Assembly: GCA_964528475.1 (NCBI GenBank)
Contig: CAZGSX010000003.1
Span: 1,681-65,680, forward strand
Direction: 5' to 3'
Length of the DNA: 64,000 nt
Origin: an uncultured Anaerolineales bacterium
GTDB lineage: Bacteria; Chloroflexota; Anaerolineae; B4-G1
In this document: positions 10,325 to 62,151 of the stretch, piece after piece
Layout: each line of letters begins with the position of its first letter
Numbering within the stretch: the stretch's first letter is position 1
Translations under genes and position numbers: made by a program
Notes under the pieces: model-generated
The model's input: only the letters and a program-made list of their open reading frames with translations
Told to the model about the DNA's origin: nothing
Databases searched by the model: none

Positions 10325-13168
10325 ATGAAGAGACGCGTATGGCCGTTCATTCTGGGCGCCCTGGCCGCGCTGGCCGTGGCGGCAGCCCCACTGCAGCAGA
10401 GAAACGTCACGTATCAGCGCTACGATGTGGTCATCGACGTGCAGCGGGACGGCTCGTTACTCGTGACAGAGACGTACGAACTGCGCTTCGAGGGTGAGTT
10501 CCGCACCGGGTTTGCGGAGATTCCACTGGACAACGTGACCGACATCGTAGACGTCACGGTGCGGGAAGGCGAGCGCCCTTACGTCCAGGGTGGTTACGGC
10601 ACGGGAACTTTCACCCTGGAACGGGGTTACGATGCCATTCGTGTCAACTGGGAGTACGAAGCCACCAGCGGCACCGAAGTTCGGACCTTCACGGTCGCCT
10701 ATCGCGTACTTGGGGGTCTGTGGGTCTATCCTGATTTCGACTGGCTGATGTGGCAGGCAGTACCAGCCGATCGCAGCGGGATCCCAACAGAGGCGAGCAA
10801 AGTGACAGTGCGCCTGCCGGCCCCAGTCGACGAAGAGCAGCTGGTCGTCAATTCCAGGGGCATAGACGCTACGGCTACCGTGGTTGACGCCACTACCGTG
10901 GTCTTTGAGTCCAGGGGTTCGCTCCGTCAGAACACGGCCTTCGAGGTGGAGGTCGGTTTCCCGCACGGTATGACCAGCGCTGGCATCTCTGACTGGCAGA
11001 AGCGCGCCGATGAGACAGCGGCGGATTACCGCTGGACCGATGTGACAGTCGACCTGGCGGTCGCTCAGGATGGATCGGTGACCGTCCACGAAAGGCACGC
11101 GTTGGACGTGAAATCCGGATACCTCTACAGCGGGTACCGGATCATTCCCTGGCTCTACTTGGACGGAATCGAGAGCGTGTCCGTGGAGTCGGCCGGGCAG
11201 TCCTTCCAGTTCAGCTCAAGCCCCTGTGAGTCCTGCTACGTGGTTGAGGAGAAGCCGAGACAACCGGATTGGGTTCTGTTTGACGGGGAACAGGTGGTAA
11301 TCGACAGCGATCGAGCAGGCGTGACCTTGGTCGAATGGTCCTTTCCCCCCCTAGGCGCCGGCGACACAGGGGCTTTCGACCTTAGGTATTCGGCGACGGG
11401 TGCCGTCAGGGTGCTAAGTGACACGCAAGAGATCAACTGGACCGTCGTCTTCGCGGACCGAGGTGTGCCCGTCGAAGGAGCTACCCTGAACGTCACCCTG
11501 CCTCCGAGTGTGGCGCCTGACCAGATCACCATCTCTGGAGGAGCACCCACCGTCCGGTCAGATGGTGTCCTACAGGTGCACCACGACGGGCCTGTGCCAG
11601 AAGGTCGTCCCTGGTCGGTTCTCATTCAGATGCCCCCGGGCACAACGGCAGCTAAGAAACCCATCTGGCAGCAGCAGCTGGAGCAGCAGCTCCGGAAGGA
11701 ACAGGCGCACTTCGAATCCGCACAGCAAGCAGCGGTCCGCACAGCCCGCTGGCAGGTGGCACTGGGGGCACTCGGATGTCTTTTCCCCATCCTGGGCCTG
11801 GCAGGCGTCGTGGCAGCGTGGTACGTGTGGGGTCGCGACCGGGCGGCACCCCCGGTGGCCGCATACCTCACCGAGCCGCCGTCAGACCTCCCGCCAGGGA
11901 TCGTCGCCTACCTGGTCGACGAGGAGCCGACGGTCAAGGGCGTTCTGGCCGATCTTCTCCGTCTGGCGACGCTTGGCCTGATCAGCGTGGATCTGCAGAA
12001 GGAGGATTTCACGGTTCAGCTGAACTGGCCCAACAAGCTAGAGGATGGCGAAACCGTCCGCGTAGGCGATGGAGAGCCCGTCGCGTTGAGCCAGCACGAG
12101 CGCACGCTCTTCAATCTGCTGGTCGAGCGAATCACTGAGCTTGGCGCAGGGACGGATCAGGTCGATGAGGCGGGCCAACGGCCCGTGGCCTTCTCCAAAA
12201 TCCAACGTGCCTTCCTGCGGGAGTTGCCCACGATTTACGAACAGATGGGCAAAGCGGCAGCCCAGTACTTCTCCGTGCTGCCGGAGACCGCGCGTCGACG
12301 CTGGACCCGTATCGGACAAGCAGTGGTGGTGGCCGCGATTACGCTGGGGCTCGCTGCCCTGTGCAGCAGCACCACGTTGGGCTGGCCTGCCCTCGCCCCC
12401 CCAGTTGGTCTGATGGTGGTGGGCCTGATGTTCATGGGCGCGAGCCGTTGGATGCCCCAGCGCACCACGCTGGGGATCGAGGAGGCAGCGAAGTGGCGGG
12501 CCTTCCGGCGCTACCTGAAGAACCTCAAGCAATTCGGCGATCTCGAGGACGCGCAGGTCGTGCTGGACGATCACTTCCCCTACGCTGTGGCGCTCGGGAT
12601 CGACGAAATCGTCCTGCGGCAAGCCGAGAAGATGGACGCCCAGGTACCGATCTGGATGGTCCCTGTTCCGGTACAGGTGGGCCCGCCCTCCGTCGCGCCC
12701 CGGTCGCAGCGGAGCCTCCGGGACCTAGTGGAGGGCACGCAGCACGGGCCGGCCTCCACAGTCGGCGACGCCAGGCCGGTGGAAGGCCGCCCTTCACCGA
12801 CCGGCCGACCTGCGGGGGCCAACCTGTCGCTCCAAGGTTTGTCGGACAATCTGAGCCGTTCCCTGAACAACGCCAGTCGGTCGCTCAGCTCATTGTTGAA
12901 TACGGCGGCCGGCCGCCAGGACGACATCGATTCCCCAGTTGGAGTGAGGGAGAAAGGAGCGAGCGAGGCTACCCAGATCCCACGGACGGCTGGGACCTCT
13001 ACGATGAAGATTCTGAGCGATATCCTGAAGGAATCCTCCTCAGGTGGCGGAGGTGGGGGTTTCAGTGGAGGCAGCTTCCGATCGAGCAGTTGGGGTGGAA
13101 GCCGGTCAAGATCCAGCAGTAGTTCCTCCCGACGCAGCGGCGGGGGCGGCAGCAGAGGGTTCGGATAG
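10325..13168 (+). CDS. DUF2207-family large membrane protein (signal peptide, extracytoplasmic beta-rich domain, central TM helices, C-terminal Gly/Ser-rich tail)
   Basis: Signal peptide MKRRVWPFILGALAALAVAAAP. TM helices ALGALGCLFPILGLAGVVAAWYVW and VVVAAITLGLAALCSS...LMVVGLMFMGA. Terminal GGGGGGFSGGSFRSSSWGGSRSRSSSSSSRRSGGGGSRGFG, typical of DUF2207. Confidence 0.7.
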   Translation: MKRRVWPFILGALAALAVAAAPLQQRNVTYQRYDVVIDVQRDGSLLVTETYELRFEGEFRTGFAEIPLDNVTDIVDVTVREGERPYVQGGYGTGTFTLERGYDAIRVNWEYEATSGTEVRTFTVAYRVLGGLWVYPDFDWLMWQAVPADRSGIPTEASKVTVRLPAPVDEEQLVVNSRGIDATATVVDATTVVFESRGSLRQNTAFEVEVGFPHGMTSAGISDWQKRADETAADYRWTDVTVDLAVAQDGSVTVHERHALDVKSGYLYSGYRIIPWLYLDGIESVSVESAGQSFQFSSSPCESCYVVEEKPRQPDWVLFDGEQVVIDSDRAGVTLVEWSFPPLGAGDTGAFDLRYSATGAVRVLSDTQEINWTVVFADRGVPVEGATLNVTLPPSVAPDQITISGGAPTVRSDGVLQVHHDGPVPEGRPWSVLIQMPPGTTAAKKPIWQQQLEQQLRKEQAHFESAQQAAVRTARWQVALGALGCLFPILGLAGVVAAWYVWGRDRAAPPVAAYLTEPPSDLPPGIVAYLVDEEPTVKGVLADLLRLATLGLISVDLQKEDFTVQLNWPNKLEDGETVRVGDGEPVALSQHERTLFNLLVERITELGAGTDQVDEAGQRPVAFSKIQRAFLRELPTIYEQMGKAAAQYFSVLPETARRRWTRIGQAVVVAAITLGLAALCSSTTLGWPALAPPVGLMVVGLMFMGASRWMPQRTTLGIEEAAKWRAFRRYLKNLKQFGDLEDAQVVLDDHFPYAVALGIDEIVLRQAEKMDAQVPIWMVPVPVQVGPPSVAPRSQRSLRDLVEGTQHGPASTVGDARPVEGRPSPTGRPAGANLSLQGLSDNLSRSLNNASRSLSSLLNTAAGRQDDIDSPVGVREKGASEATQIPRTAGTSTMKILSDILKESSSGGGGGGFSGGSFRSSSWGGSRSRSSSSSSRRSGGGGSRGFG

Positions 13169-13372: not shown

Positions 13373-14605
13373 GTGTCGCTTGTGGATGACTTGGTTGAAT
13401 TGATCACGACCCCACATGGGGCGTTGGCTTATCATCTGGTCACCCTGTTTGCGATCCAGTTGATCGTGGGCGTGGCGCTGGGTCATTGGCAGCGTCAGCG
13501 GGACCGAGCTGCCGCCCGTCTGGTGATTATGGCGCTGGGTCTTCTCCTGGCACGCCTTGTCATGATGCTGCTGGCCGTCGTAGCAGGCGTCAACCTCGTT
13601 TCGTCAGCCCTCGTGCTCCCTCCCCTGGAACGCTTTCTACAGTTCGTAACCTCCCTGCTCGTCATTTGGGCTTTCCTGCCCATTTTGAGAGAGAGAGTCC
13701 ATCTGAGCACATTCCTTCTCCTCTCTGGTGTCGTGTTGGCAGCGGTGGCCTATGCGGCATCCGCATCGCTCTGGTCTGAGGTGGAAACTGCGGGGACCTC
13801 CTATGCCATGGCGTGGCAAGGGAGGCTGTGGGAGCTTTCGACTGCCGCTGTGATCGGGCTGGCACTCCTGATAGGCCTCGCCTGGCGAGGAGCCGATTGG
13901 GGCTGGATGGCCTGCCTTCTCGCCCTGTGGCTCACAGGGCACATCCTGCAACTGATCGCTCCCATCCGAGACGTGCATTCTGCCCCTTGGGTACGACTGG
14001 CGAACCTGGCCGCTCTTCCGCTTCTCGCTGCCCTTGTCTATCGCCGGGCATTGGCCATGGCCAACGTGCCTGCAACCAGCAAGCAGGGCGTCTCTTCCAG
14101 CGCCATCGACCTGCTGACGGCAGTCCGTAGCATCCACTCTGAGGGCGACCTCAGGGCAGGCCTTGAGCTAGCACTGCCCACCATCGCTCGGGCCGTCGAC
14201 GCCGACATGGCGGCAGTTGGGCTTCTCGTTCCTGGCCTGGTAGACACGTTGCGCGTCGTCGCTCTGCACCCCAAGACAAACCCAGCCACCGAAAGAGGGG
14301 CCGTCGTCATTTCTCTCTCGGACTATCCGCTCTTGAACAGAGTGGCCCACAGTCGTCGCCCGGACGACACAAGCGGAGACGCCAGCACCGTGCCGGAAAC
14401 AGGGGATCTGTATCGCAGGCTCGGCTGGGAAAGCTCCGGGCCCTTGTTGGTGGAGCCGTTGATCAGCGGTAGAGAGATCCTGGGGCTGGTATGGGTGGGA
14501 AATCCGGAGTCCGAGCGAGAATGGAGCTCGCGTGAGGCGCAGATTCTTGAGGGGGCCGCCTTGGTGCTTGCCTGCGCCATCGCCGGCGAAGGCAATGGAG
14601 AGTAG
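13373..14605 (+). CDS. Polytopic membrane protein with C-terminal GAF-like domain (7TM-GAF sensor, no output domain)
   Basis: Six to seven N-terminal hydrophobic helices. C-terminal region (AVGLLVPGLVDTLRVVALHP...LLVEPLISGREILGLVWVGN) resembles a GAF fold. GTG start with RBS. Confidence 0.55.
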   Translation: MSLVDDLVELITTPHGALAYHLVTLFAIQLIVGVALGHWQRQRDRAAARLVIMALGLLLARLVMMLLAVVAGVNLVSSALVLPPLERFLQFVTSLLVIWAFLPILRERVHLSTFLLLSGVVLAAVAYAASASLWSEVETAGTSYAMAWQGRLWELSTAAVIGLALLIGLAWRGADWGWMACLLALWLTGHILQLIAPIRDVHSAPWVRLANLAALPLLAALVYRRALAMANVPATSKQGVSSSAIDLLTAVRSIHSEGDLRAGLELALPTIARAVDADMAAVGLLVPGLVDTLRVVALHPKTNPATERGAVVISLSDYPLLNRVAHSRRPDDTSGDASTVPETGDLYRRLGWESSGPLLVEPLISGREILGLVWVGNPESEREWSSREAQILEGAALVLACAIAGEGNGE

Positions 14606-14726: not shown

Positions 14727-15794
14727 GTGCAGGAGCTTGGTGGCGGAACGATGACTAACCAGCGCCATCCTGGCGAGTCGCAGCAAGGCCTCGTACGTCA
14801 GTTCCTCGTGCCTCTGGTGGTCACGCTCGTCAGCGTCGCCATGGTGTTGGGAGGCTTCCTGCTGGTGTGGCTAGACACTGCTCCGATGTCGCCGATGCCA
14901 ACCCAGGTTCTTGTCCAGCGGCCCTCCGTCACCCCTTTCCTGCCCACACTCACGCAGCAGCCACCGGCGACCCCCGTGGCTACCTTCGTGAGCCCCCTCT
15001 CGCCGCCGGAAGGGCAGACAGCGGAGCCGGAGATCAGTGTCGAGCCACCGATGGGAACACTTGCTCCCACCGCTCCGTGGACGCCAGTGCCTCCCCGTAC
15101 CGGAGCTCCCACAGCAGCACCCACGTGCGCTCAGCCGCCAGGCTGGTTCATCTACACTGTGCGGGAAGGCGATACGTTGACCGGACTGGCTCGGCTGTCC
15201 GGAGTGACGACGTGGACTCTAATGCGCAGCAACTGCCTGGAGACAACGGTCCTCTACGCTGGTCAGCGGCTCTACGTCCCACCGTCTTTCTACACTCCGC
15301 CCACGCCACAGCCCTCTCCGTGCGGACCCCCTAGCAACTGGGTGGTGTACACGGTACAGCCGCAGGAGACCCTCTACAGCCTGTCCATTCGCTTTGGTGT
15401 GGACATCGAGGTTCTGCGACGGGCCAATTGCCTGCGGAGCTACACGATCTATGCCGGGCAGGTGCTGTATGTGCCGCCTGGCCCGTGGCCGACCGCCACG
15501 TCCACCCCGTCCGTCTCGCCCACTCCCACGGAGCAGACGACAGCGACATCAACCCCGCCCTCGGTAACCCCGAGCCCGACGTTGCCCCATGCCACCGCGA
15601 CGCCATCGCCCAGCGCCACACAGGCGCCAGAACCGAGCGGCAGCCCCTCGCCAAGTCCGACGCCCTCTTCCACCGGCACGCCGACTGCCACCGGCACTTC
15701 CACGGTCACAGCGACGCCGACGGCGACATGGACGCCGACAGTGACGTCAACCGCGACGCCTACCCCAACCACCCCAACTCCTGAAGGCAACTAG
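14727..15794 (+). CDS. LysM-domain peptidoglycan-binding membrane protein with Pro/Thr/Ser-rich linkers
   Basis: N-terminal TM. Two LysM motifs (YTVREGDTLTGLARLSGVTTWTLMRSNCL...YAGQRLYVP and YTVQPQETLYSLSIRFGVDIEVLRRANCL...YAGQVLYVP). C-terminal PT-rich low-complexity tail. Confidence 0.8.
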   Translation: MQELGGGTMTNQRHPGESQQGLVRQFLVPLVVTLVSVAMVLGGFLLVWLDTAPMSPMPTQVLVQRPSVTPFLPTLTQQPPATPVATFVSPLSPPEGQTAEPEISVEPPMGTLAPTAPWTPVPPRTGAPTAAPTCAQPPGWFIYTVREGDTLTGLARLSGVTTWTLMRSNCLETTVLYAGQRLYVPPSFYTPPTPQPSPCGPPSNWVVYTVQPQETLYSLSIRFGVDIEVLRRANCLRSYTIYAGQVLYVPPGPWPTATSTPSVSPTPTEQTTATSTPPSVTPSPTLPHATATPSPSATQAPEPSGSPSPSPTPSSTGTPTATGTSTVTATPTATWTPTVTSTATPTPTTPTPEGN

Positions 15795-56790: not shown

Positions 56791-57159
56791 ATGAGTAGAG
56801 CACGCGTCAAGTTGGGGCGCAGGGGAGAGGAACTGGCCGCGGACGCACTATCCCGACGCGGCTACGAAATCGTCAGCCGAAATTGGCACTGCCAGCTCGG
56901 GGAGGTCGACATCGTGGCCCGTCGCGGCGGGACCTGGGCCTTCTTCGAAGTGCGCACGCGGCGCGGTCGAGCGTTCGGCACCCCGGAAGAATCGGTCACG
57001 GCGAGCAAGATAGAGCGTATGGCTGATGTGGCGCGGCTGTTTCTTGCCGAGAATGACGTTAACGTAAACGCCGTCAACTGGCAAATCGGCGTCGTCGCCG
57101 TGGAAATGGATGAGGTGGGACATCTGCTGCGGATCGAGATCTATGAGACGCTCTGGTAA
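56791..57159 (+). CDS. yraN: YraN-family (UPF0102) endonuclease
   Basis: GEELAADALSRRGYEIVSRNW...GEVDIVARRGGTWAFFEVRTRRG canonical YraN motif; 122 aa. Confidence 0.85.
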   Translation: MSRARVKLGRRGEELAADALSRRGYEIVSRNWHCQLGEVDIVARRGGTWAFFEVRTRRGRAFGTPEESVTASKIERMADVARLFLAENDVNVNAVNWQIGVVAVEMDEVGHLLRIEIYETLW

Positions 57160-58156
57160 CGACGACAAGCAGGGGCCCGCCTCCTGGACCACAGGCTCCC
57201 CTTCGCCGCTGGTGGTGATCGTGGGCCCGACCGCGGTGGGCAAGACCTCCCTCTCCCTCCACCTTGGCGAGGCTCTAGATGGCGAGATCATCTCGGCCGA
57301 TTCCCGTTCCTTCTACCGCGGCATGGACATCGGCACGGCCAAGCCAACCCGGGAGGAGCGAGAGCGCGTCCACCACCACCTCATCGACATCGCCGATCCG
57401 GATGAGACCGTAGGACTGGCAGAGTACCAGGACCTGGCCTACGCAGCCATCGACCAAGTGCTGGCGCGCGACAAGCTTCCGCTCCTCGTGGGCGGGACCG
57501 GTCAGTACGTCAAGGCCGTTGTCGAGGGGTGGCGGATCCCCCGCGTGATGCCGCATCCGCACCTGAGAGAGGAACTGGAGGACAAGGCCGAGCGGGAGAG
57601 TCCCTATGCCCTGCACGCCTGGCTGGAGCAGCTCGATCCCCAGGCTGCTGAGGACATCCATCCCCATAACGTGCGCCGAGTGGTACGCGCCCTCGAGGTC
57701 TGCCTAGTCACAGGGAGGCCCATCTCCAGGCAACAGGGAAAGGATCCCCCGCCGTACCACATCCTCCAGATTGGCCTCACCATGGACCGTGAGAAGCTCT
57801 ACGAGCGCGCCGATCGGCGCCTGGAGATGATGATTGAGGACGGCCTGGTGGAAGAAGTGCGCAGCCTACTCCAACAGGGATACATCTGGGAGCTCCCCTC
57901 CATGTCAGCGGTGGGCTACGCCGAGTTTCGCCCCCTGTTGGAGGCCGAGCGCCAGGGAAGCGCGCCTACGCCGGAAGATCTGGACGCAGTCCTTGACGAG
58001 ATTCGGCATGACCTCCGGCGCTTCATCCGTCACCAGTACAACTGGTTTGATCCCGACGACACAAGCATCCACTGGTTCGACGCCTCCGAAGCCACCCACG
58101 AGGAGATAGAAGGCATGGTCCGCGAATGGCTCAACGAGCTGCGCTCGCCATCGTGA
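57146..58156 (+). CDS. miaA: tRNA dimethylallyltransferase MiaA (start placed at ATG 57146, overlapping yraN by 14 nt; ORF track gives 57110)
   Basis: P-loop VVIVGPTAVGKTSLSLHL; DSRSFYRGMDIGTAKPT; HHLID; about 335 aa. Confidence 0.9.
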   Translation, partial: RRSGNDDKQGPASWTTGSPSPLVVIVGPTAVGKTSLSLHLGEALDGEIISADSRSFYRGMDIGTAKPTREERERVHHHLIDIADPDETVGLAEYQDLAYAAIDQVLARDKLPLLVGGTGQYVKAVVEGWRIPRVMPHPHLREELEDKAERESPYALHAWLEQLDPQAAEDIHPHNVRRVVRALEVCLVTGRPISRQQGKDPPPYHILQIGLTMDREKLYERADRRLEMMIEDGLVEEVRSLLQQGYIWELPSMSAVGYAEFRPLLEAERQGSAPTPEDLDAVLDEIRHDLRRFIRHQYNWFDPDDTSIHWFDASEATHEEIEGMVREWLNELRSPS

Positions 58157-58168
58157 GGGTAGGGTAGT

Positions 58169-58197
58169 TTGCCTCAACGACGCCCTGATGGTAGAAT
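58169..58197 (+). promoter_or_regulatory. Promoter TTGCCT-17-TGGTAGAAT for GNAT gene
   Basis: Identical hexamers and spacing to the tRNA-His promoter (39155-39183). Confidence 0.5.
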
Positions 58198-58251
58198 GAA
58201 CGACACTGTGTAGCGCTCAGCCGCGGACCGATCAACCCAGGAAATCACGTC

Positions 58252-58782
58252 ATGCACGTTCGCCCAGCCGAACCAAAGGACTTATCCGCCTGCAGCGAGC
58301 TGGACCACTCATATACCACTGATCAGGTATGGCAGATGGACACCCGCAGGACAGATGGGGCTTGGCGAGTGGTGTTCCGCACAGTCCGGTTGCCTCGGGA
58401 GATCCAGGTCGATTATCCGCGGCAAGGGGAGGATCTTCTGGCGGGCTGGAGGCGCCGCGACGGCTTCATCGTGGCAGAAATAGACGATCGCGTGTGGGGC
58501 TATGCCACCCTGACTGTGCAGCCCGAGCATGGCATCCTGTGGGTGGACGATCTGGTTGTAGATCGATCTCAAAGACATCGTGGGGTTGGAACCGCGCTCC
58601 TGAAGGCCTGTGCCCAGTGGGGATGCAGTCAGGACATGGTCCGGCTAACCGTGGAGGTGCAGACCAAGAACTACCCCGCCATACGCTTCTGCCGCACGCG
58701 CGGCCTCACGTTCTCCGGATATAACGATCACTATTGGGCAAGTGAGGACATCGCCGTATTCTTCACGGGTAGGCTGCGGTAG
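58252..58782 (+). CDS. GNAT family N-acetyltransferase
   Basis: Acetyl-CoA binding motif A LVVDRSQRHRGVGTALL; about 176 aa. Confidence 0.85.
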   Translation: MHVRPAEPKDLSACSELDHSYTTDQVWQMDTRRTDGAWRVVFRTVRLPREIQVDYPRQGEDLLAGWRRRDGFIVAEIDDRVWGYATLTVQPEHGILWVDDLVVDRSQRHRGVGTALLKACAQWGCSQDMVRLTVEVQTKNYPAIRFCRTRGLTFSGYNDHYWASEDIAVFFTGRLR

Positions 58783-58943
58783 TCGATCGGGCCCAGGGCG
58801 ACGGGAGTCCCGTCGTTAGAGTCGCTTTTTGACAAGGTACGCATCTGCTTCTGCCCCCGACAGACTGGGACCAGTGCTTACAGCAGAAGACGAGAGCCGG
58901 GAGGGGAGAAGCAACAGGGTATCATCTGGTACTGGTTAATGTA

Positions 58944-60959
58944 TTGATTGGGTCGATGGGTTCTTTATTGGTATTAGATATTCAGAGGCTACTTGAGTGG
59001 GTTAATGTCGTGCTCACCTCCGGCATTGTCATCTTCTCCTTTGCCCTTCTCCTGTATCTCCTGATTCACAGTCATCACAACCGAGTTGCGCGTACGTTTG
59101 CCTTCTTGCTGGGATGCGTTCTGCTCACGTACTTCGTGGATCTGGCACTGTTTGGGGTTAAGGAGGCGCGGGCGGCGCAGCCGTGGCTCAGAGTGCAGTG
59201 GGTCGGGATTGCCCTTGCGCCAGCCGCCTATCTCAACTTCTCTAACGCCTTGCTGAACACGACAGGAGAGCGGAGCAGGCTGCAGACAGTCGCCGTCTAT
59301 GTGAGCTATGTGCTGAGCGGTCTCTTGCTGGGAGGCGCAGCCTTTGGAGACCTGGTGGTACAAGGCAGCTTGTCCACAGATCAGCTGCCACACCTGCTCC
59401 CGGGTCCCCTGTTCCCCTTGTTCACTCTGTACTTCTCAGTGGCGGTGGCCTGGGGCGCAGCTAACGTGTTGCGCGCGCGGAGTCGCTGTCTCACCTCGAC
59501 CTCTCGACGACGCATGTCGTACCTGGCAGCTACCTTCGCTGCCCCGGCCGCAGGGGTCTTCCCGTATCTGCTGCTCGCAGGTTGGCCCACCCCTGCACCG
59601 GGAATAGGGCTCTGGCTGGTCCTGATCGTCGGGAACATCTCCGTGGGGGCGATGCTGGTCGTTCTGTCCTACAGCGTGGTTTCCTTTGGTGCTCTGACCC
59701 CTGACCGTGTGGTGAAGCACCGCCTGGTGCACTTTCTCCTGCGAGGGCCCTTCGTGGCCACGCTAGTAGCTATCATCATTATTGTGACCTCCCAGACGGA
59801 AGGGTGGCTGGGACTCCCCAGTCGGCGCCTCATGCTGTTCGGTGTCGTCGGCTTGATTCTGCTGCTGCAAGTCGCCATTGAAGTCGCCAAGCCATTGATT
59901 GACCGAGCGCTTTACCGCCAGGATCGGGCAGAGATCGAATGGATCCAGGGGCTCTCGAATCGTCTTCTCACCTCGACTGACCTCCACCAGTTCCTGGAGA
60001 GTGTGCTGACAGCGCTGTGCGAGCTCCTAAGAATTGACACAGCTTTTGTGGCAGTCATGGACGACGGCGAGGCCCATCTGGAGGTCGCCTGTGGAGACCT
60101 GAAGACCAGCCAGCCCGGGGATCTGTCCCTGGAGGCTTGGCGTGTGTCTTTGCAGCGAGTGGGCACGACGGAGAACCATGAGACACGCGCCGGCGATGAG
60201 TCGCCAAGCCGAAGAAAGAGGAATGGCGAACAGCGGCAACTGGTCCGCCATGGTGATCTTTTCGTATGGAATGGGTACTGGCTTGCCCCGCTTCGCTCAA
60301 GCGGCGACACAACTATGATCCTGGGCGTGCTTGGTCTTGCGGCGCGGGCCCCCGAGCCGAACCTGACACCGGAGGAGAAGCGCGGCGTGGACAACCTGCT
60401 GGCCCAAGCAGCCGCGGCTCTGGAGGACCGACAGCTCCAACAGGGCATCTTCAGCGCCCTGGGACGAATCATGCCGGAGATTGAGGACATTCAACGACGT
60501 CGGGGAATGGTCCACTATTCAGGCGACGAGGCCCTCTCCGGGTTCAGGGCAATCGGGTCCAGTGAGTTCCGCGAATGGGTATTCGAGGCGCTCAAACACT
60601 ACTGGGGAGGCCCCAAGCTGACCACCAGTCCCCTTATGTCGCTGCAGATTGTGGAACGGGCAACCCGCGAGCAAGATGGCAACCCGATGAAGGGCCTCCG
60701 CTCGGTGCTTCGCCAGGCCATCGAGCGGCTGCGACCCGAGGGCGAGCGGAAGATGACCGCTCCCGCCTGGGTCCTGTTCAATATCCTGGACCTGAAGTTC
60801 CTTCAGGGGCAGAAGGTACGGGAGGTGGCGCAACGCCTGGCGATGAGCGAGTCGAACCTGTACCGGAAGCAGCGCGTGGCGATCCAAGCGGCGGCTCAGA
60901 TGCTCGCGGAGATGGAGCGCGAGGAGTTAGAGAACCAAGCGGAGGGAGCCAAGACGTAG
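58944..60959 (+). CDS. Polytopic membrane sensor protein: N-terminal 7-8 TM domain, central GAF-like domain, C-terminal sigma-70 region-4-like HTH
   Basis: TM helices through about aa 300. LRIDTAFVAVMDDGEAHLEVACGD...GVLGLAARA (GAF-like). C-terminal ILDLKFLQGQKVREVAQRLAMSESNLYRKQRVAIQAAAQML resembles the sigma70_r4_2 HTH. Confidence 0.6.
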   Translation: MIGSMGSLLVLDIQRLLEWVNVVLTSGIVIFSFALLLYLLIHSHHNRVARTFAFLLGCVLLTYFVDLALFGVKEARAAQPWLRVQWVGIALAPAAYLNFSNALLNTTGERSRLQTVAVYVSYVLSGLLLGGAAFGDLVVQGSLSTDQLPHLLPGPLFPLFTLYFSVAVAWGAANVLRARSRCLTSTSRRRMSYLAATFAAPAAGVFPYLLLAGWPTPAPGIGLWLVLIVGNISVGAMLVVLSYSVVSFGALTPDRVVKHRLVHFLLRGPFVATLVAIIIIVTSQTEGWLGLPSRRLMLFGVVGLILLLQVAIEVAKPLIDRALYRQDRAEIEWIQGLSNRLLTSTDLHQFLESVLTALCELLRIDTAFVAVMDDGEAHLEVACGDLKTSQPGDLSLEAWRVSLQRVGTTENHETRAGDESPSRRKRNGEQRQLVRHGDLFVWNGYWLAPLRSSGDTTMILGVLGLAARAPEPNLTPEEKRGVDNLLAQAAAALEDRQLQQGIFSALGRIMPEIEDIQRRRGMVHYSGDEALSGFRAIGSSEFREWVFEALKHYWGGPKLTTSPLMSLQIVERATREQDGNPMKGLRSVLRQAIERLRPEGERKMTAPAWVLFNILDLKFLQGQKVREVAQRLAMSESNLYRKQRVAIQAAAQMLAEMEREELENQAEGAKT

Positions 60960-61059
60960 CAAGCGGTATTGACGGTTCATCCAGTCCCGAGGGGGACATC
61001 CAGCGTCCGGGCCTCGTGAAAAGCACCAGAGAGCCCTCACGCATGGCCCAGGGCGGAGC

Positions 61060-62151
61060 ATGGCGCGAGGAAGGACCGGCACGGAGGTAGTGATGGGGCG
61101 TAGAGGAGAATGGATCCCTCCCGAAGCACCACTAGGCGAGGGATACTGGCGAGCGCTGTTGCGCGATGGAGAAGCCGCGAGCGCTGCGCCCGCGGTCAGT
61201 CCCACGGAGGTGTGGAGAAATCGTGCGCCTGAATCAGGCACGGCGCCCGAGCAGACCGCTGAGTCATCCGACGTTGAGGACCCTTGGGAGCGGGCCCGTC
61301 ACCTGATGGCTGTAGAGCGTACGATGGAGCTGCCGGTTGTGGGCTGCAACCGCGGAGGGTTGCTCGTGGCCTGGAATGGCCTGACCGGATTCGTGCCAGC
61401 CTCCCATCTGCTTGAACTGACTCCGGTGGCCGACGAGCGAGAGCGCCGGAAGGCCATGGAGGAGTACATTGGCAGCCGGTTGCCCCTTCAGATCATCGAA
61501 TTGGACCGCGACAGGGAGCGCTTTGTTCTATCGGAGCGCGCAGCGCAGATCGACTCTCAAGAGGGCGAGGGATTGCTTGACCAGCTTGAACCTGGGGAGA
61601 TCTGTCAAGGCCGGGTGACCAGTCTGTGTTCCTTCGGTGCCTTCATTGATTTGGGAGGGTTTGAGGGGCTGGCGCACATCTCCGAGCTTTCCTGGGGAAG
61701 AGTGGGGCACCCCAGAGAGGTGTTGGAGCCCGGGGAGATGGTGGGCGTGTACGTTCTGAACGTGGATCCCAAGCGGGAACGGGTGGCGTTGAGTATCAAG
61801 CGCTTGCAGCCTAACCCGTGGGAGTCCGTCGAAGAGCGGTACGCCGTGGGGCAAATGCTGGAGGGCAGGGTGAGTCACGTGGTGGACTTCGGCGCCTTCG
61901 TTCAGATAGAGAAGGGACTCGAGGGGCTCATTCACGTCTCGGAGCTGCAACCCGGCAACCCGTGTGATCCGCGCGATCTGCTGAGAGCCGGTGACCAGGT
62001 CTCCGTGACCGTGCTGTCGATAGACGGCGGCCGACAGCGCATGGGGCTGAGACTCGACGAACGGCAGTCGACGACCGCAACAGCTTCAGCCTTATCCGAG
62101 GGTGCTGAGACACCCCTTAGAGCATCGGAAGAGCATGAGAGACAGATATAA
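61060..62151 (+). CDS. S1 RNA-binding domain protein (three S1-like domains; ribosomal protein S1 paralog), probable start MGRRGEW at 61093
   Basis: S1 OB-fold motifs: GRVTSLCSFGAFIDLGG.EGLAHISEL; GRVSHVVDFGAFVQIEKGLEGLIHVSEL; VVGCNRGGLLVAWNGLTGFVPASHL. Confidence 0.8.
   Translation: MARGRTGTEVVMGRRGEWIPPEAPLGEGYWRALLRDGEAASAAPAVSPTEVWRNRAPESGTAPEQTAESSDVEDPWERARHLMAVERTMELPVVGCNRGGLLVAWNGLTGFVPASHLLELTPVADERERRKAMEEYIGSRLPLQIIELDRDRERFVLSERAAQIDSQEGEGLLDQLEPGEICQGRVTSLCSFGAFIDLGGFEGLAHISELSWGRVGHPREVLEPGEMVGVYVLNVDPKRERVALSIKRLQPNPWESVEERYAVGQMLEGRVSHVVDFGAFVQIEKGLEGLIHVSELQPGNPCDPRDLLRAGDQVSVTVLSIDGGRQRMGLRLDERQSTTATASALSEGAETPLRASEEHERQI

What the first reader, a model, noticed from the sequence alone, without database searches (positions are those of the whole stretch)
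58944..60959. Unusual one-component membrane regulator: 7-8 TM sensor + GAF-like domain + sigma-70 region-4-type HTH
The C-terminal about 60 aa (DLKFLQGQKVREVAQRLAMSESNLYRKQRVAIQ) match the ECF sigma factor region-4 HTH rather than a classical LuxR/OmpR output. They are fused to a large polytopic membrane domain and a GAF-like module. A membrane-tethered protein with an r4-type HTH is an uncommon architecture. It could be a membrane-bound transcription regulator or a sigma-factor mimic or decoy. A paralogous 7TM-GAF protein without the HTH is encoded at 13373-14605.
Basis: partly seen in the sequence, partly recalled or inferred. Interest (0 to 1): 0.6.

Follow-up and report, generated by a model that had tools for sequence, protein, structure and literature searches.

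The report
Membrane sensor fused to sigma-like HTH
This gene encodes a nine-helix membrane sensor joined to a GAF domain and a sigma-factor-region-4-type DNA-binding fold; it is a real but unstudied protein family found throughout the Anaerolineae, and most likely a transcription regulator that works from the membrane.

Summary
The ORF at 58944-60959 (+) is real; the start is more likely the ATG at 58956. It has over 1,100 full-length homologues and occurs in at least 593 species-level genomes, essentially all Chloroflexota of class Anaerolineae.

Domain order:
- A HisKA_7TM sensor, above Pfam's cut-off, with nine TM helices in all (N-terminus out, C-terminus in).
- A GAF domain.
- A 50-residue helix and a short flexible tether.
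- A 130-residue C-terminal domain that no Pfam model covers.

The C-terminal domain models at pLDDT 96.5. It is a 40-residue helical cap carrying the family's most invariant motif (HYWGGPxLxxSPL), followed by a four-helix HTH. The best structural and sequence matches of the HTH are region 4 of ECF sigma factors. There is no kinase core and no sigma region 2.

Three points do not:
- The protein has nine TM helices, not 7-8.
- The "paralog" at 13373-14605 shows no detectable homology.
- Membrane-tethered transcription regulators are not rare.

A GNAT acetyltransferase gene lies directly upstream in 54 of 67 loci. An S1-domain gene and then ftsK follow downstream.

The function is inferred, not shown: a membrane-integrated one-component regulator. 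I found no DNA target.

The parts
58944..60959 (+). ORF of the 9TM-GAF-HTH protein (671 aa from the TTG at 58944; the likelier start is the ATG at 58956, giving 667 aa)
   Evidence: P0001 is 100% identical and starts at the ATG, and homologues align from that Met.
58992..59891 (+). Polytopic membrane domain, residues 17-316: nine TM helices with the N-terminus outside and the C-terminus inside. An outside beta-hairpin lies at residues 139-153. The cytoplasmic loops 178-192 (RARSRCLTSTSRRRM) and 248-269 are highly conserved.
   Evidence: AlphaFold model. Hydropathy and the positive-inside rule give K+R of 13 in odd loops against 4 in even loops, and loop conservation is 0.71-0.74.
59028..59579 (+). 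Pfam HisKA_7TM (PF16927) match, residues 29-212
   Evidence: E=2.6e-8, 34.4 bits against a cut-off of 28.6. The same family is precomputed on essentially all homologues and found in 8 of 10 distant representatives.
59979..60422 (+). GAF domain, residues about 346-493, with a variable low-confidence insert at about 388-433
   Evidence: GAF_2 at 28.8 bits against a cut-off of 28.6. Foldseek hits 3cit, 3eea and 2y8h. Low pLDDT at 390-393 and 415-429. Insert conservation is 0.15.
60369..60518 (+). Single long helix, residues 476-525, linking the GAF domain to the output domain. It holds the invariant PEIEDIQRRR and no His-box.
60519..60560 (+). Flexible, poorly conserved tether, residues 526-539
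   Evidence: pLDDT below 50 at 524-534; conservation 0.30.
60561..60677 (+). Helical cap subdomain, residues 540-578, with the family's most invariant motif AL.HYWGGP.L..SPL. It matches no known family.
   Evidence: Invariant columns A549, L550, W554, G555, G556 and L564 across 45 diverse sequences. Modelled at pLDDT above 90.
60684..60923 (+). Four-helix sigma-70 region-4-type HTH, residues 581-660: H1 581-595, H2 607-620, H3 625-631, and a recognition helix from 636
   Evidence: TIGR02937 E=4.7e-4 on residues 569-650. Family-wide sub-threshold r4 hits. Profile hit to region 4.2 of a PDB sigma factor. Foldseek finds 3hug at rmsd 2.6 A over 72 aligned columns, plus 2h27, 3vfz and 6dxo. hhalign to E. 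coli sigma-E residues 126-183 in the right register.
60846..60893 (+). Turn and recognition helix, SESNLYRKQRVAIQAA (residues 635-650). R641, K642 and A646 are invariant; S635, Y640 and Q643 are at least 90% conserved.
58252..58782 (+). GNAT acetyltransferase gene directly upstream; the conserved partner and probably the first gene of the transcription unit
   Evidence: Pfam Acetyltransf_1 E=1e-16. It lies directly upstream in 54 of 67 loci, with a gap of 50 nt or less in 32 of 54.
58169..58197 (+). Promoter-like site TTGCCT-N17-TAGAAT with a TG extension, upstream of the GNAT gene
   Evidence: The same TTGCnn-N14-TGnTAnAAT arrangement occurs upstream of the GNAT gene in 23 of 52 loci.
61060..62151 (+). 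S1-domain (ribosomal protein S1-like) gene directly downstream, followed by ftsK. This is conserved context and probably a separate transcription unit.
   Evidence: Words resembling TTGACA and TATAAT are enriched in the spacer in several loci.

Best explanation
The gene encodes a membrane-integrated one-component regulator. This family of transmembrane transcription regulators appears specific to the Chloroflexota class Anaerolineae.

Shown:
- A HisKA_7TM-type sensor of nine TM helices, with the N-terminus outside.
- A cytoplasmic GAF domain, then a 50-residue helix and a flexible tether.
- A C-terminal domain made of a 40-residue helical cap packed onto a four-helix HTH of the sigma-70 region-4 type.
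- No histidine-kinase core and no sigma region 2.
- The family keeps this architecture down to about 30% identity.
- It is usually encoded just after a GNAT acetyltransferase gene.

Inferred:
- A signal is perceived in the membrane domain, the GAF pocket, or both.
- The signal travels through the long helix, probably within a dimer, and changes how the C-terminal HTH is presented.
- The HTH binds a conserved DNA element while the protein stays in the membrane, as ToxR and CadC do, or after cleavage at the tether. This represses or activates transcription.
- The near-invariant recognition helix across the whole class points to a target that is itself conserved across the class.
For: Architecture:
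- HisKA_7TM is above Pfam's gathering score.
- GAF_2 is at the gathering score on the isolated region, with GAF structural hits.
- The full-length model has mean pLDDT 85.5. It shows nine long helices, a GAF fold, a helix at 476-525, a disordered stretch at 524-534 and a confident C-terminal domain.
- The topology places the GAF and HTH domains in the cytoplasm.

Output domain:
- The C-terminal model has pLDDT 96.5 and pTM 0.89.
- Its Foldseek hits are almost all sigma region 4. SigL sigma-4 aligns at rmsd 2.6 A over 72 aligned columns with TMt 0.70 and probability 1.0. Sigma-E region 4 on -35 DNA, SigD4, BldN, SigK and FliA also appear.
- TIGR02937 gives E=4.7e-4.
- DUF1492 hits 29 of 36 members, Sigma70_r4_2 18 of 36, Sigma70_r4 11 of 36 and Sigma70_ECF 11 of 36.
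- A PDB profile search puts region 4.2 of a sigma factor first.
- hhalign to sigma-E covers all of region 4.

Selection:
- Over 1,100 homologues, 852 clusters and at least 593 species genomes.
- The HTH (0.67) and two cytoplasmic loops (0.71 and 0.74) are the best-conserved parts.
- The invariant residues cluster in the turn and recognition helix.

Precedent: transmembrane transcription regulators are common, and they act on DNA from the membrane (PMC10269533).
Against: - DNA binding is inferred from the fold alone.
- Every sequence match to sigma region 4 is below the curated cut-offs. The Foldseek E-values are weak (0.05-2) because the domain is small.
- I found no candidate operator. K-mer enrichment in the spacers upstream of the gene, upstream of the GNAT gene and downstream of the gene gave only housekeeping-type promoter words.
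- Sigma region 4 domains also serve as protein-docking surfaces (RNA polymerase beta-flap, anti-sigma factors), so the fold does not prove a DNA-binding role.
- Class-wide presence, high conservation and a housekeeping neighbourhood (miaA, S1 gene, ftsK) are unusual for an environmental-response regulator.
Confidence: 0.55

Rival explanations
1. Sigma region-4 mimic or decoy. The membrane-tethered sigma-4-like domain does not read DNA. It docks onto a protein that normally binds sigma region 4, such as the RNA polymerase beta-flap tip or an anti-sigma or anti-sigma-like factor. This would sequester or recruit that protein at the membrane in response to the sensor.
For: - Many of the closest structures are sigma-4 domains solved in complex with anti-sigma factors (3hug, 3vep, 6dxo, 4nqw, 1sc5).
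- The domain is a lone region 4 with no region 2.
- An invariant surface across a whole class would fit binding to an invariant protein such as RNA polymerase.
- I found no DNA motif.
Against: - The invariant residues are basic or polar (R641, K642, Q643, Y640) and sit on the helix that reads DNA in sigma-4, in the same register as sigma-E and a group-3 sigma.
- No anti-sigma-like gene is conserved next to it; the conserved neighbours are the GNAT, S1 and ftsK genes.
- I know of no precedent for a polytopic-membrane sigma-4 decoy (own knowledge).
Confidence: 0.15
2. A structural or cell-biological role rather than gene regulation. The protein would be a constitutive membrane anchor that ties DNA or a cytoskeletal or division protein to the membrane in these filamentous bacteria. 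RodZ is the analogy: its cytoplasmic HTH binds MreB.
For: - The family is present class-wide, with one copy per locus sampled.
- Conservation is very high along the whole length, including the TM helices and cytoplasmic loops.
- The gene sits in a conserved housekeeping block, GNAT-gene-S1-ftsK, down to 36% identity.
Against: - HisKA_7TM and GAF are typical signal-input modules (PMC5847659).
- Synteny with ftsK may be inherited gene order; the S1 gene appears to have its own promoter.
- No direct evidence links the protein to division or segregation.
Confidence: 0.15
3. A proteolysis-released regulator. The membrane form is inactive, and on signal the protein is cut in the flexible tether (residues about 524-539), releasing a soluble cap-plus-HTH domain that acts as the transcription factor. 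This is a variant of the best explanation.
For: The tether between the long helix and the output domain is disordered and poorly conserved (pLDDT below 50, conservation 0.30), while both flanks are highly conserved. Cleavage-dependent activation has been reported for CadC, going by the title and abstract of PMC11484849 listed.
Against: No protease gene is conserved nearby. A flexible tether is equally what a membrane-bound factor needs in order to reach DNA. No conserved cleavage motif is visible in the tether.
Confidence: 0.1

Closest known systems
Transmembrane transcription regulators / membrane-integrated one-component systems (ToxR, CadC, TcpP, BcrR; census in PMC10269533)
   Same: Sensor, membrane anchor and an HTH output sit in one polypeptide, and the output domain is cytoplasmic. 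They are presumed to act on DNA from the membrane.
   Different: ToxR and CadC have an N-terminal OmpR-type winged HTH, one TM helix and a periplasmic sensor (own knowledge; PMC5430869 abstract). Here the HTH is C-terminal and of the sigma-4 type. The membrane part is a nine-helix HisKA_7TM domain, and a GAF domain is inserted between them.
HisKA_7TM histidine kinases (Pfam PF16927; for example haloarchaeal VNG_2180C, PMC5847659)
   Same: The N-terminal 7TM sensor domain is homologous and scores above Pfam's gathering threshold. It is often followed by PAS or GAF domains.
   Different: There is no DHp/His-box and no HATPase_c domain. The kinase core is replaced by a helix plus an HTH domain, and two extra TM helices follow the seven.
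Region 4 (sigma-4) of ECF and other sigma-70-family sigma factors (for example M. tuberculosis SigL 3hug, E. coli sigma-E 2h27)
   Same: The four-helix fold is the same. An H1 "LR..L..AIE.LRP" corresponds to the ECF "L..al..Lp". The HTH register and the recognition helix "S...LYRKQRVAI" resemble "S...VSRLQRTAI".
   Different: There is no region 2, so the protein cannot be a sigma factor. About 10 residues are inserted between H1 and H2, an extra N-terminal cap is present, and the domain is covalently tethered to a membrane sensor.
Haloarchaeal Bat-type regulators (PAS-GAF-BAT-HTH_10; PMC5847659)
   Same: A GAF domain is followed by a small helical linker domain and a C-terminal HTH output, within a one-component layout.
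   Different: Bat proteins are soluble and archaeal. The window protein and the family scan gave no BAT or HTH_10 match, so this is an analogy of layout only.
ECF sigma factors with fused transmembrane extensions (own knowledge, not checked here)
   Same: A sigma-type DNA-binding module is covalently attached to membrane helices.
   Different: Those proteins are complete sigma factors (regions 2 and 4) at the N-terminus, with TM helices at the C-terminus. Here the order is reversed and only a region-4-like domain is present.

Membership tests
HisKA_7TM (PF16927) sensor domain | Match to the Pfam model at or above the gathering score | tested here: met
   34.4 bits against 28.6, E=2.6e-8, model positions 6-191 of 224. 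Precomputed on nearly all homologues; found in 8 of 10 distant representatives.
HisKA_7TM (PF16927) sensor domain | N-terminal bundle of seven TM helices | tested here: met
   nine TM helices, the first seven covering the Pfam match. There is weak 7TM-bundle similarity to GPCRs and none to transporters.
Sensor histidine kinase | DHp domain with a phospho-accepting His (HisKA) and an HATPase_c catalytic domain | tested here: not met
   No HisKA or HATPase_c hit at E<=1. The helix at 476-525 has no conserved His. The sequence after it is the HTH domain.
GAF domain | Profile match and GAF fold | tested here: met
   GAF_2 gives 28.8 bits against 28.6 on residues 331-519. PF13185, PF01590 and PF13492 are precomputed on many homologues. 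Foldseek finds 3cit, 3eea, 2y8h and 5m82 with TMt 0.55-0.58.
GAF domain | Known ligand-binding signature (cyclic-nucleotide NKFDE motif, or a bilin- or haem-binding Cys/His) | tested here: inconclusive
   No NKFDE motif is visible in residues 346-475. C359 is nearly invariant, but it lies in a helix and its role is unknown. The ligand cannot be inferred.
Sigma-70-family sigma factor | Region 2 (core binding and -10 recognition) | tested here: not met
   No Sigma70_r2 hit. The TIGR02937 match covers only model positions 91-161 of 165, that is region 4.
Sigma-70 region 4-type HTH (fold level) | Four-helix domain with an HTH in helices 3-4 that superposes on solved sigma-4 domains | tested here: met
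   Model at pLDDT 96.5. 3hug_K aligns at rmsd 2.6 A over 72 aligned columns, TMt 0.70, probability 1.0. 2h27, 3vfz, 3vep, 6dxo, 4nqw and 1sc5 are also among the top hits.
Sigma-70 region 4 (Pfam Sigma70_r4 / r4_2 membership) | Score at or above the Pfam gathering threshold | tested here: not met
   The window protein gives r4_2 E=0.017-0.049, 13.7-15.2 bits against 25.7. The best family member reaches E=2.5e-4. The hits are consistent but all below threshold.
LuxR/GerE-type HTH | Match to the GerE model or sequence | tested here: inconclusive
   GerE hits only 2 of 36 members, best E=0.091. It belongs to the same broad tetrahelical HTH class, with sigma-4 the better match.
Transmembrane transcription regulator (TTR, as defined in PMC10269533) | At least one TM region plus a DNA-binding domain in one protein | tested here: met
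   Nine TM helices. The DNA-binding-type domain is met at fold level only, and it would not pass a Pfam-threshold filter.
Transmembrane transcription regulator (TTR) | Sequence-specific DNA binding and control of transcription | not testable with these tools
   No operator motif was recovered by k-mer analysis of 50-70 orthologous spacers. This needs DAP-seq, EMSA or ChIP.
ToxR/CadC family | N-terminal OmpR-type winged HTH, a single TM helix and a periplasmic sensor | tested here: not met
   No Trans_reg_C hit. The HTH is C-terminal and there are nine TM helices.
Bat-type GAF-BAT-HTH_10 regulators | BAT (PF15915) and HTH_10 (PF04967) domains after the GAF domain | tested here: not met
   Neither family is listed for the window protein's C-terminus at E<=10, nor among the 25 most frequent of the 37 families matched across 36 members; the other 12 were not shown.

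The most novel reading that the evidence does not exclude
The protein may not be an ordinary environmental regulator. It could instead be a lineage-defining core component of Anaerolineae cell biology: a membrane-embedded sensor whose lone sigma-region-4 domain docks RNA polymerase, or a fixed chromosomal element, at the membrane. That would couple transcription or chromosome handling to the envelope or to septation in these filamentous bacteria. The co-transcribed GNAT enzyme might modify the invariant Lys/Arg surface of the HTH. The following observations are consistent with this reading without demonstrating it:
- the family is present class-wide;
- the recognition helix is near-invariant;
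- the cytoplasmic loops are highly conserved;
- the GNAT-gene-S1-ftsK gene block is conserved.
Probability: 0.15. Interest if true: 0.75.

Novelty: new variant of a known kind. Interest (0 to 1): 0.42.

Why it matters
If the inference is right, this is a large regulator family conserved across a whole bacterial class whose output domain current domain libraries do not recognise. Public records call it only a "histidine kinase N-terminal 7TM domain-containing protein" or a hypothetical protein. Pfam-based censuses of one-component and transmembrane regulators would therefore probably miss it.

It would add a third type of output, after kinase and cyclase cores, to the HisKA_7TM sensor. It would also give a clean example of a kinase core replaced by a sigma-4-type HTH.

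Anaerolineae are abundant in digesters, sediments and wastewater, yet they are barely tractable genetically. A conserved, single-copy membrane sensor with a predicted DNA-binding end is a concrete handle for biochemical work on how they sense their surroundings.

The practical gain is modest. It amounts to a better annotation and a defined new domain, the HYWGGP cap plus sigma-4-like HTH, that could be turned into a profile.

Tried and rejected
1. Paralogy with the ORF at 13373-14605. BLASTP gives E=6.7 and hhalign against the 45-sequence family profile gives probability 0.5%, aligning only GAF on GAF. Rejected.
2. A transporter or other known membrane family for the N-terminus. Foldseek against the PDB gave only weak GPCR-like 7TM matches and no transporter. 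Rejected.
3. A degenerate histidine kinase. There is no HisKA or HATPase_c domain and no conserved His in the helix at 476-525. Rejected as a kinase, though it probably derives from one.
4. A true sigma factor. There is no region 2. Rejected.
5. A search for an operator or -35-like motif. I ran k-mer enrichment against shuffles on 160 nt upstream of the gene (70 loci), 150 nt downstream (68 loci), the 17 long GNAT-gene spacers and the 120-150 nt upstream of the GNAT gene (52-53 loci).
   - The first set was contaminated by the coding sequence at the GNAT C-terminus.
   - The others gave only promoter words: TTGCCN-N14-TGnTAnAAT upstream of the GNAT gene, and TTGACA- and TATAAT-like words before the S1 gene.
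   - TTGCCN is also the -35 hexamer at 8 of 10 other extended -10 sites in the loci, so it is probably the class's housekeeping form and not a specific target.
6. An RNA element in the 173-nt spacer upstream. Rfam gave no hit at E<=1 over 58100-61200, and the fold z-score of -1.4 is unremarkable.
7. The C-terminal domain in other architectures. All short proteins among the top 150 cluster representatives are N-terminally truncated fragments of the same architecture. A family HMM found exactly one copy per locus in about 1 Mb of Anaerolineae DNA and none elsewhere in the window. The roughly 700 weaker cluster hits (E 1e-26 to 1e-3) were not listed and could not be inspected.
8. A single-sequence phmmer search against the PDB found nothing relevant.
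Full report
**1. The observation**

The ORF listing shows a 671-aa ORF at 58944-60959 on the + strand with a TTG start. A database protein that is 100% identical (P0001, 667 aa) starts four codons later at the ATG at 58956. Homologues align from that methionine, so 58956 is the likelier start.

The ORF is not a chance reading frame. A word-indexed search returned more than 1,110 homologues. The best 120 are all full-length, at 63-100% identity.

**2. Domain anatomy**

- **N-terminus.** Pfam places HisKA_7TM (PF16927) on residues 29-212 at E=2.6e-8, with 34.4 bits against a gathering score of 28.6.
- **GAF domain.** GAF models score weakly on the whole protein. On residues 331-519 alone, GAF_2 reaches 28.8 bits against a cut-off of 28.6. 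Many homologues carry precomputed GAF_2, GAF or GAF_3 hits.
- **Full-length model.** An AlphaFold2 model built on a 45-sequence alignment spanning 30-85% identity has mean pLDDT 85.5 and pTM 0.67. It shows:
  - nine long helices within residues 2-323;
  - a beta-hairpin at 139-153;
  - an alpha/beta GAF fold with a low-confidence, variable insert at about 390-430;
  - one continuous helix at 476-525;
  - a disordered stretch at 524-534;
  - a confident all-helical domain at 540-670.
- **Topology.** Hydropathy and the positive-inside rule (13 K+R in loops 1, 3, 5 and 7 against 4 in loops 2, 4, 6 and 8) place the N-terminus outside and the GAF and C-terminal domains in the cytoplasm. The membrane domain therefore has nine TM helices, not 7-8.
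- **Fold search of the full model.** Foldseek against the PDB gives only generic 7TM-bundle similarity to GPCRs, plus GAF domains. No transporter appears.

**3. The C-terminal domain**

No curated model reaches threshold, but the sub-threshold signals agree with one another:

- NCBIfam TIGR02937 (sigma70-ECF) aligns residues 569-650 to model positions 91-161 of 165 at E=4.7e-4.
- Sigma70_r4_2 appears at E=0.02-0.05.
- I aligned 36 diverse C-terminal domains (alignment A2, 41-80% identical to the window protein) and scanned each against Pfam. Hits were DUF1492 in 29, Sigma70_r4_2 in 18, Sigma70_r4 in 11, Sigma70_ECF in 11 and GerE in only 2. DUF1492 is, to my knowledge, a sigma-4-like HTH family.
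- A profile of A2 searched against PDB sequences puts region 4.2 of a sigma factor first (8x6g_H, E=0.28). "LyRkqrvAi" aligns to "VSRLQRTAI".

The isolated domain models at pLDDT 96.5 and pTM 0.89. Its Foldseek neighbours are almost entirely sigma region 4:

- M. tuberculosis SigL sigma-4, at rmsd 2.6 A over 72 aligned columns, TMt 0.70 and probability 1.0;
- SigD sigma-4;
- E. coli sigma-E region 4 bound to -35 DNA;
- BldN, SigK, FliA and SigF.

The E-values are weak (0.05-2) because the domain is small, but the ranking is unambiguous. "LRSVLRQAIERLRPEGER" lies on "LRQIVFRTIESLPEDLR". GerE aligns over helices 2-3 only.

The HTH is thus a four-helix sigma-4-type domain (H1 581-595, H2 607-620, H3 625-631, recognition helix from 636). 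It is preceded by a 40-residue helical cap (540-578) that matches nothing known. The cap carries the most invariant motif of the family, AL.HYWGGP.L..SPL. There is no sigma region 2, no HisKA and no HATPase_c.

**4. Distribution**

- phmmer of the C-terminal 173 residues against 1.84 billion cluster representatives finds 852 clusters at E<=1e-3 and 121 at E<=1e-30.
- Of the 150 listed, 63 are 620-770 aa with the domain at the C-terminal end. The other 87 are shorter. Their first residues align to internal positions of the full-length profile, so they are N-terminally truncated fragments of the same architecture.
- Of ten distant full-length or near-full-length representatives, eight give a HisKA_7TM match at E<=0.01 and two give no Pfam match.
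The 80 returned loci are from MAGs or genomes named as follows:
  - Anaerolineae, Anaerolineales, Thermoflexales or Thermoflexus, Caldilineales;
  - Ardenticatenaceae, Promineifilaceae;
  - Bellilinea, Longilinea, Litorilinea, Anaerolinea;
  - generic Chloroflexota;
  - one 5-kb contig binned as Thiobacillus, which may be mis-binned.
- A family HMM finds exactly one copy per locus in about 1 Mb of this DNA and no second copy in the window.

**5. Genomic context**

In the window the gene order is yraN (UPF0102), miaA, a GNAT acetyltransferase gene, this gene, an S1-domain (rpsA-like) gene and ftsK. The same block is present in a 67%-identical homologue.

Across the non-redundant loci with enough flanking sequence:

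- The GNAT gene lies directly upstream in 54 of 67. The spacer is 50 nt or less in 32 of those 54, and in two loci the genes appear to overlap by about 20 nt, using start codons I estimated.
- The S1 gene lies directly downstream in 45 of 63.

The GNAT gene is preceded by a conserved extended -10 promoter, TTGCCT-N14-TGGTAGAAT. It lies at window 58169-58197 and in 23 of 52 loci. The spacer before the S1 gene is enriched in TTGACA- and TATAAT-like words. The likely transcription unit is therefore GNAT plus the sensor. In the window itself the GNAT-sensor spacer is 173 nt. It contains a GC-rich hairpin, gives no Rfam match and has an unremarkable fold.

**6. Mechanism**

The architecture, topology, conservation and gene linkage are shown. 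The rest is inferred.

The input modules are of kinds that receive signals in histidine kinases (PMC5847659). The output is a fold that reads the -35 promoter element in sigma factors. The simplest reading is a membrane-integrated one-component regulator. A signal in the membrane domain, the GAF pocket, or both would be relayed through the 476-525 helix, probably in a dimer. That would change how the tethered HTH engages a DNA site.

Two features are notable:

- The turn and recognition helix hold most of the invariant residues of the output domain: R641, K642 and A646 are invariant, and S635, Y640 and Q643 are at least 90% conserved. This suggests that the target is conserved across the class.
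- The two positively charged cytoplasmic loops (178-192 and 248-269) are the best-conserved parts of the whole protein, at 0.71 and 0.74. This suggests a contact with the cytoplasmic domains or with a partner protein.

I found no operator. K-mer analyses of the orthologous spacers returned only promoter words. The TTGCCN -35 form is shared by most other extended -10 sites in the loci, so it is probably the housekeeping form.

**7. Rival explanations**

- **Protein docking.** A lone sigma-4 domain could dock a protein such as the RNA polymerase beta-flap or an anti-sigma factor instead of reading DNA. Many of the nearest structures are sigma-4/anti-sigma complexes.
- **Structural role.** Class-wide presence, very high conservation and the housekeeping neighbourhood with ftsK would also fit a structural membrane-DNA or membrane-protein tether.
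- **Release by cleavage.** The disordered, poorly conserved tether (conservation 0.30) could be a cleavage site that releases the HTH domain.

None of these is excluded. I put the membrane-bound regulator at about 0.55. The mimic and the structural role each get about 0.15, and the released variant about 0.1.

**8. Comparison with what is known**

Transmembrane transcription regulators are common. A census found 50,302 in 9,673 genomes, 27% of them with three or more TM segments (PMC10269533). A membrane-tethered HTH is therefore not rare in itself.

That census required a recognised DNA-binding domain, and this family does not pass Pfam thresholds for one. HisKA_7TM appears in only two papers of the searchable library, both describing it as a kinase sensor.

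The protein is not:

- a ToxR/CadC-type regulator (wrong HTH type, position and TM number);
- a histidine kinase (no kinase core);
- a sigma factor (no region 2).

It resembles haloarchaeal Bat regulators (GAF-BAT-HTH_10) in layout only. I file it as a new variant of a known kind: a HisKA_7TM-GAF sensor with a capped sigma-4-type HTH output.

**9. The proposed paralog**

The ORF at 13373-14605 encodes 410 aa with a hydrophobic N-terminal part and a GAF domain (E=1.1e-5, 26.4 bits against 22.4). It has no HisKA_7TM match, BLASTP against the 671-aa protein gives E=6.7, and hhalign against the family profile gives 0.5% probability, on GAF only. The layout is similar, but paralogy cannot be demonstrated.

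**10. Verdict**

The function remains an inference. The finding matters mainly as a large, unannotated family conserved across a class, with a definable new output domain. It does not represent a new principle. Interest 0.42.

Noticed in passing
L018, L026, L027, L029, L044, L060 (spacer between the GNAT gene and the sensor gene) and L072 (upstream of the GNAT gene); printed: These spacers are built from short 7-13-nt direct repeats. One set of words fills the left half and roughly complementary words fill the right half. L029, for example, has GCAGGATGCAAGA three times, then several GACTAAAGACT-like units. The repeat units differ between genomes, so they are not the target of the invariant HTH. 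Their nature is unexplained.
   Followed up: no
window 58169-58197; the same site upstream of the GNAT gene in 23 of 52 loci: A conserved extended -10 promoter, TTGCC[TC]-N14-TGGTAGAAT. TTGCCN is also the -35 hexamer at 8 of 10 other TGnTAnAAT sites in the fetched loci, while TTGACA occurs only twice. The usual -35 hexamer in Anaerolineae may therefore be TTGCCN.
   Followed up: partly
window 13373-14605 (+): A 410-aa protein with a hydrophobic N-terminal region and a C-terminal GAF domain (Pfam GAF E=1.1e-5). It has no output domain and no detectable homology to the 671-aa protein. Its family and function were not examined further.
   Followed up: partly
window 10325-13168 (+) and 14727-15794 (+): These ORFs flank the 410-aa ORF. 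One is a 947-aa DUF2207 membrane protein with a long Ser/Gly-rich C-terminal tail. The other is a 355-aa protein with two LysM domains and long Thr/Pro-rich low-complexity stretches.
   Followed up: partly
window residues 178-192 and 248-269 of the protein (nt 59475-59519 and 59685-59750): The two positively charged cytoplasmic loops, RARSRCLTSTSRRRM and FGALTPDRVVKHRLVHFLLRGP, are the most conserved segments of the whole protein across 45 diverse homologues (0.71 and 0.74), more so than the GAF domain (0.39). No explanation was tested.
   Followed up: no
L061 (JAWOJD010000004.1, 5,003-nt contig labelled Thiobacillus sp. MAG): This is the only locus among the 80 returned whose record title names a non-Chloroflexota organism. 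Because the contig is short, it may be a binning contaminant rather than a transfer.
   Followed up: no
window 56791-57159 and 57110-58156: The yraN ORF and the longest miaA ORF overlap by 50 nt. Gene callers start miaA 33 nt later (L004 2300-3313), which shortens the overlap to 17 nt.
   Followed up: no
P0026: One homologue (76% identical, full-length) is named "truncated hemoglobin YjbI" by its source. Nothing in the domain analysis supports that name, so it is probably an annotation error.
   Followed up: no
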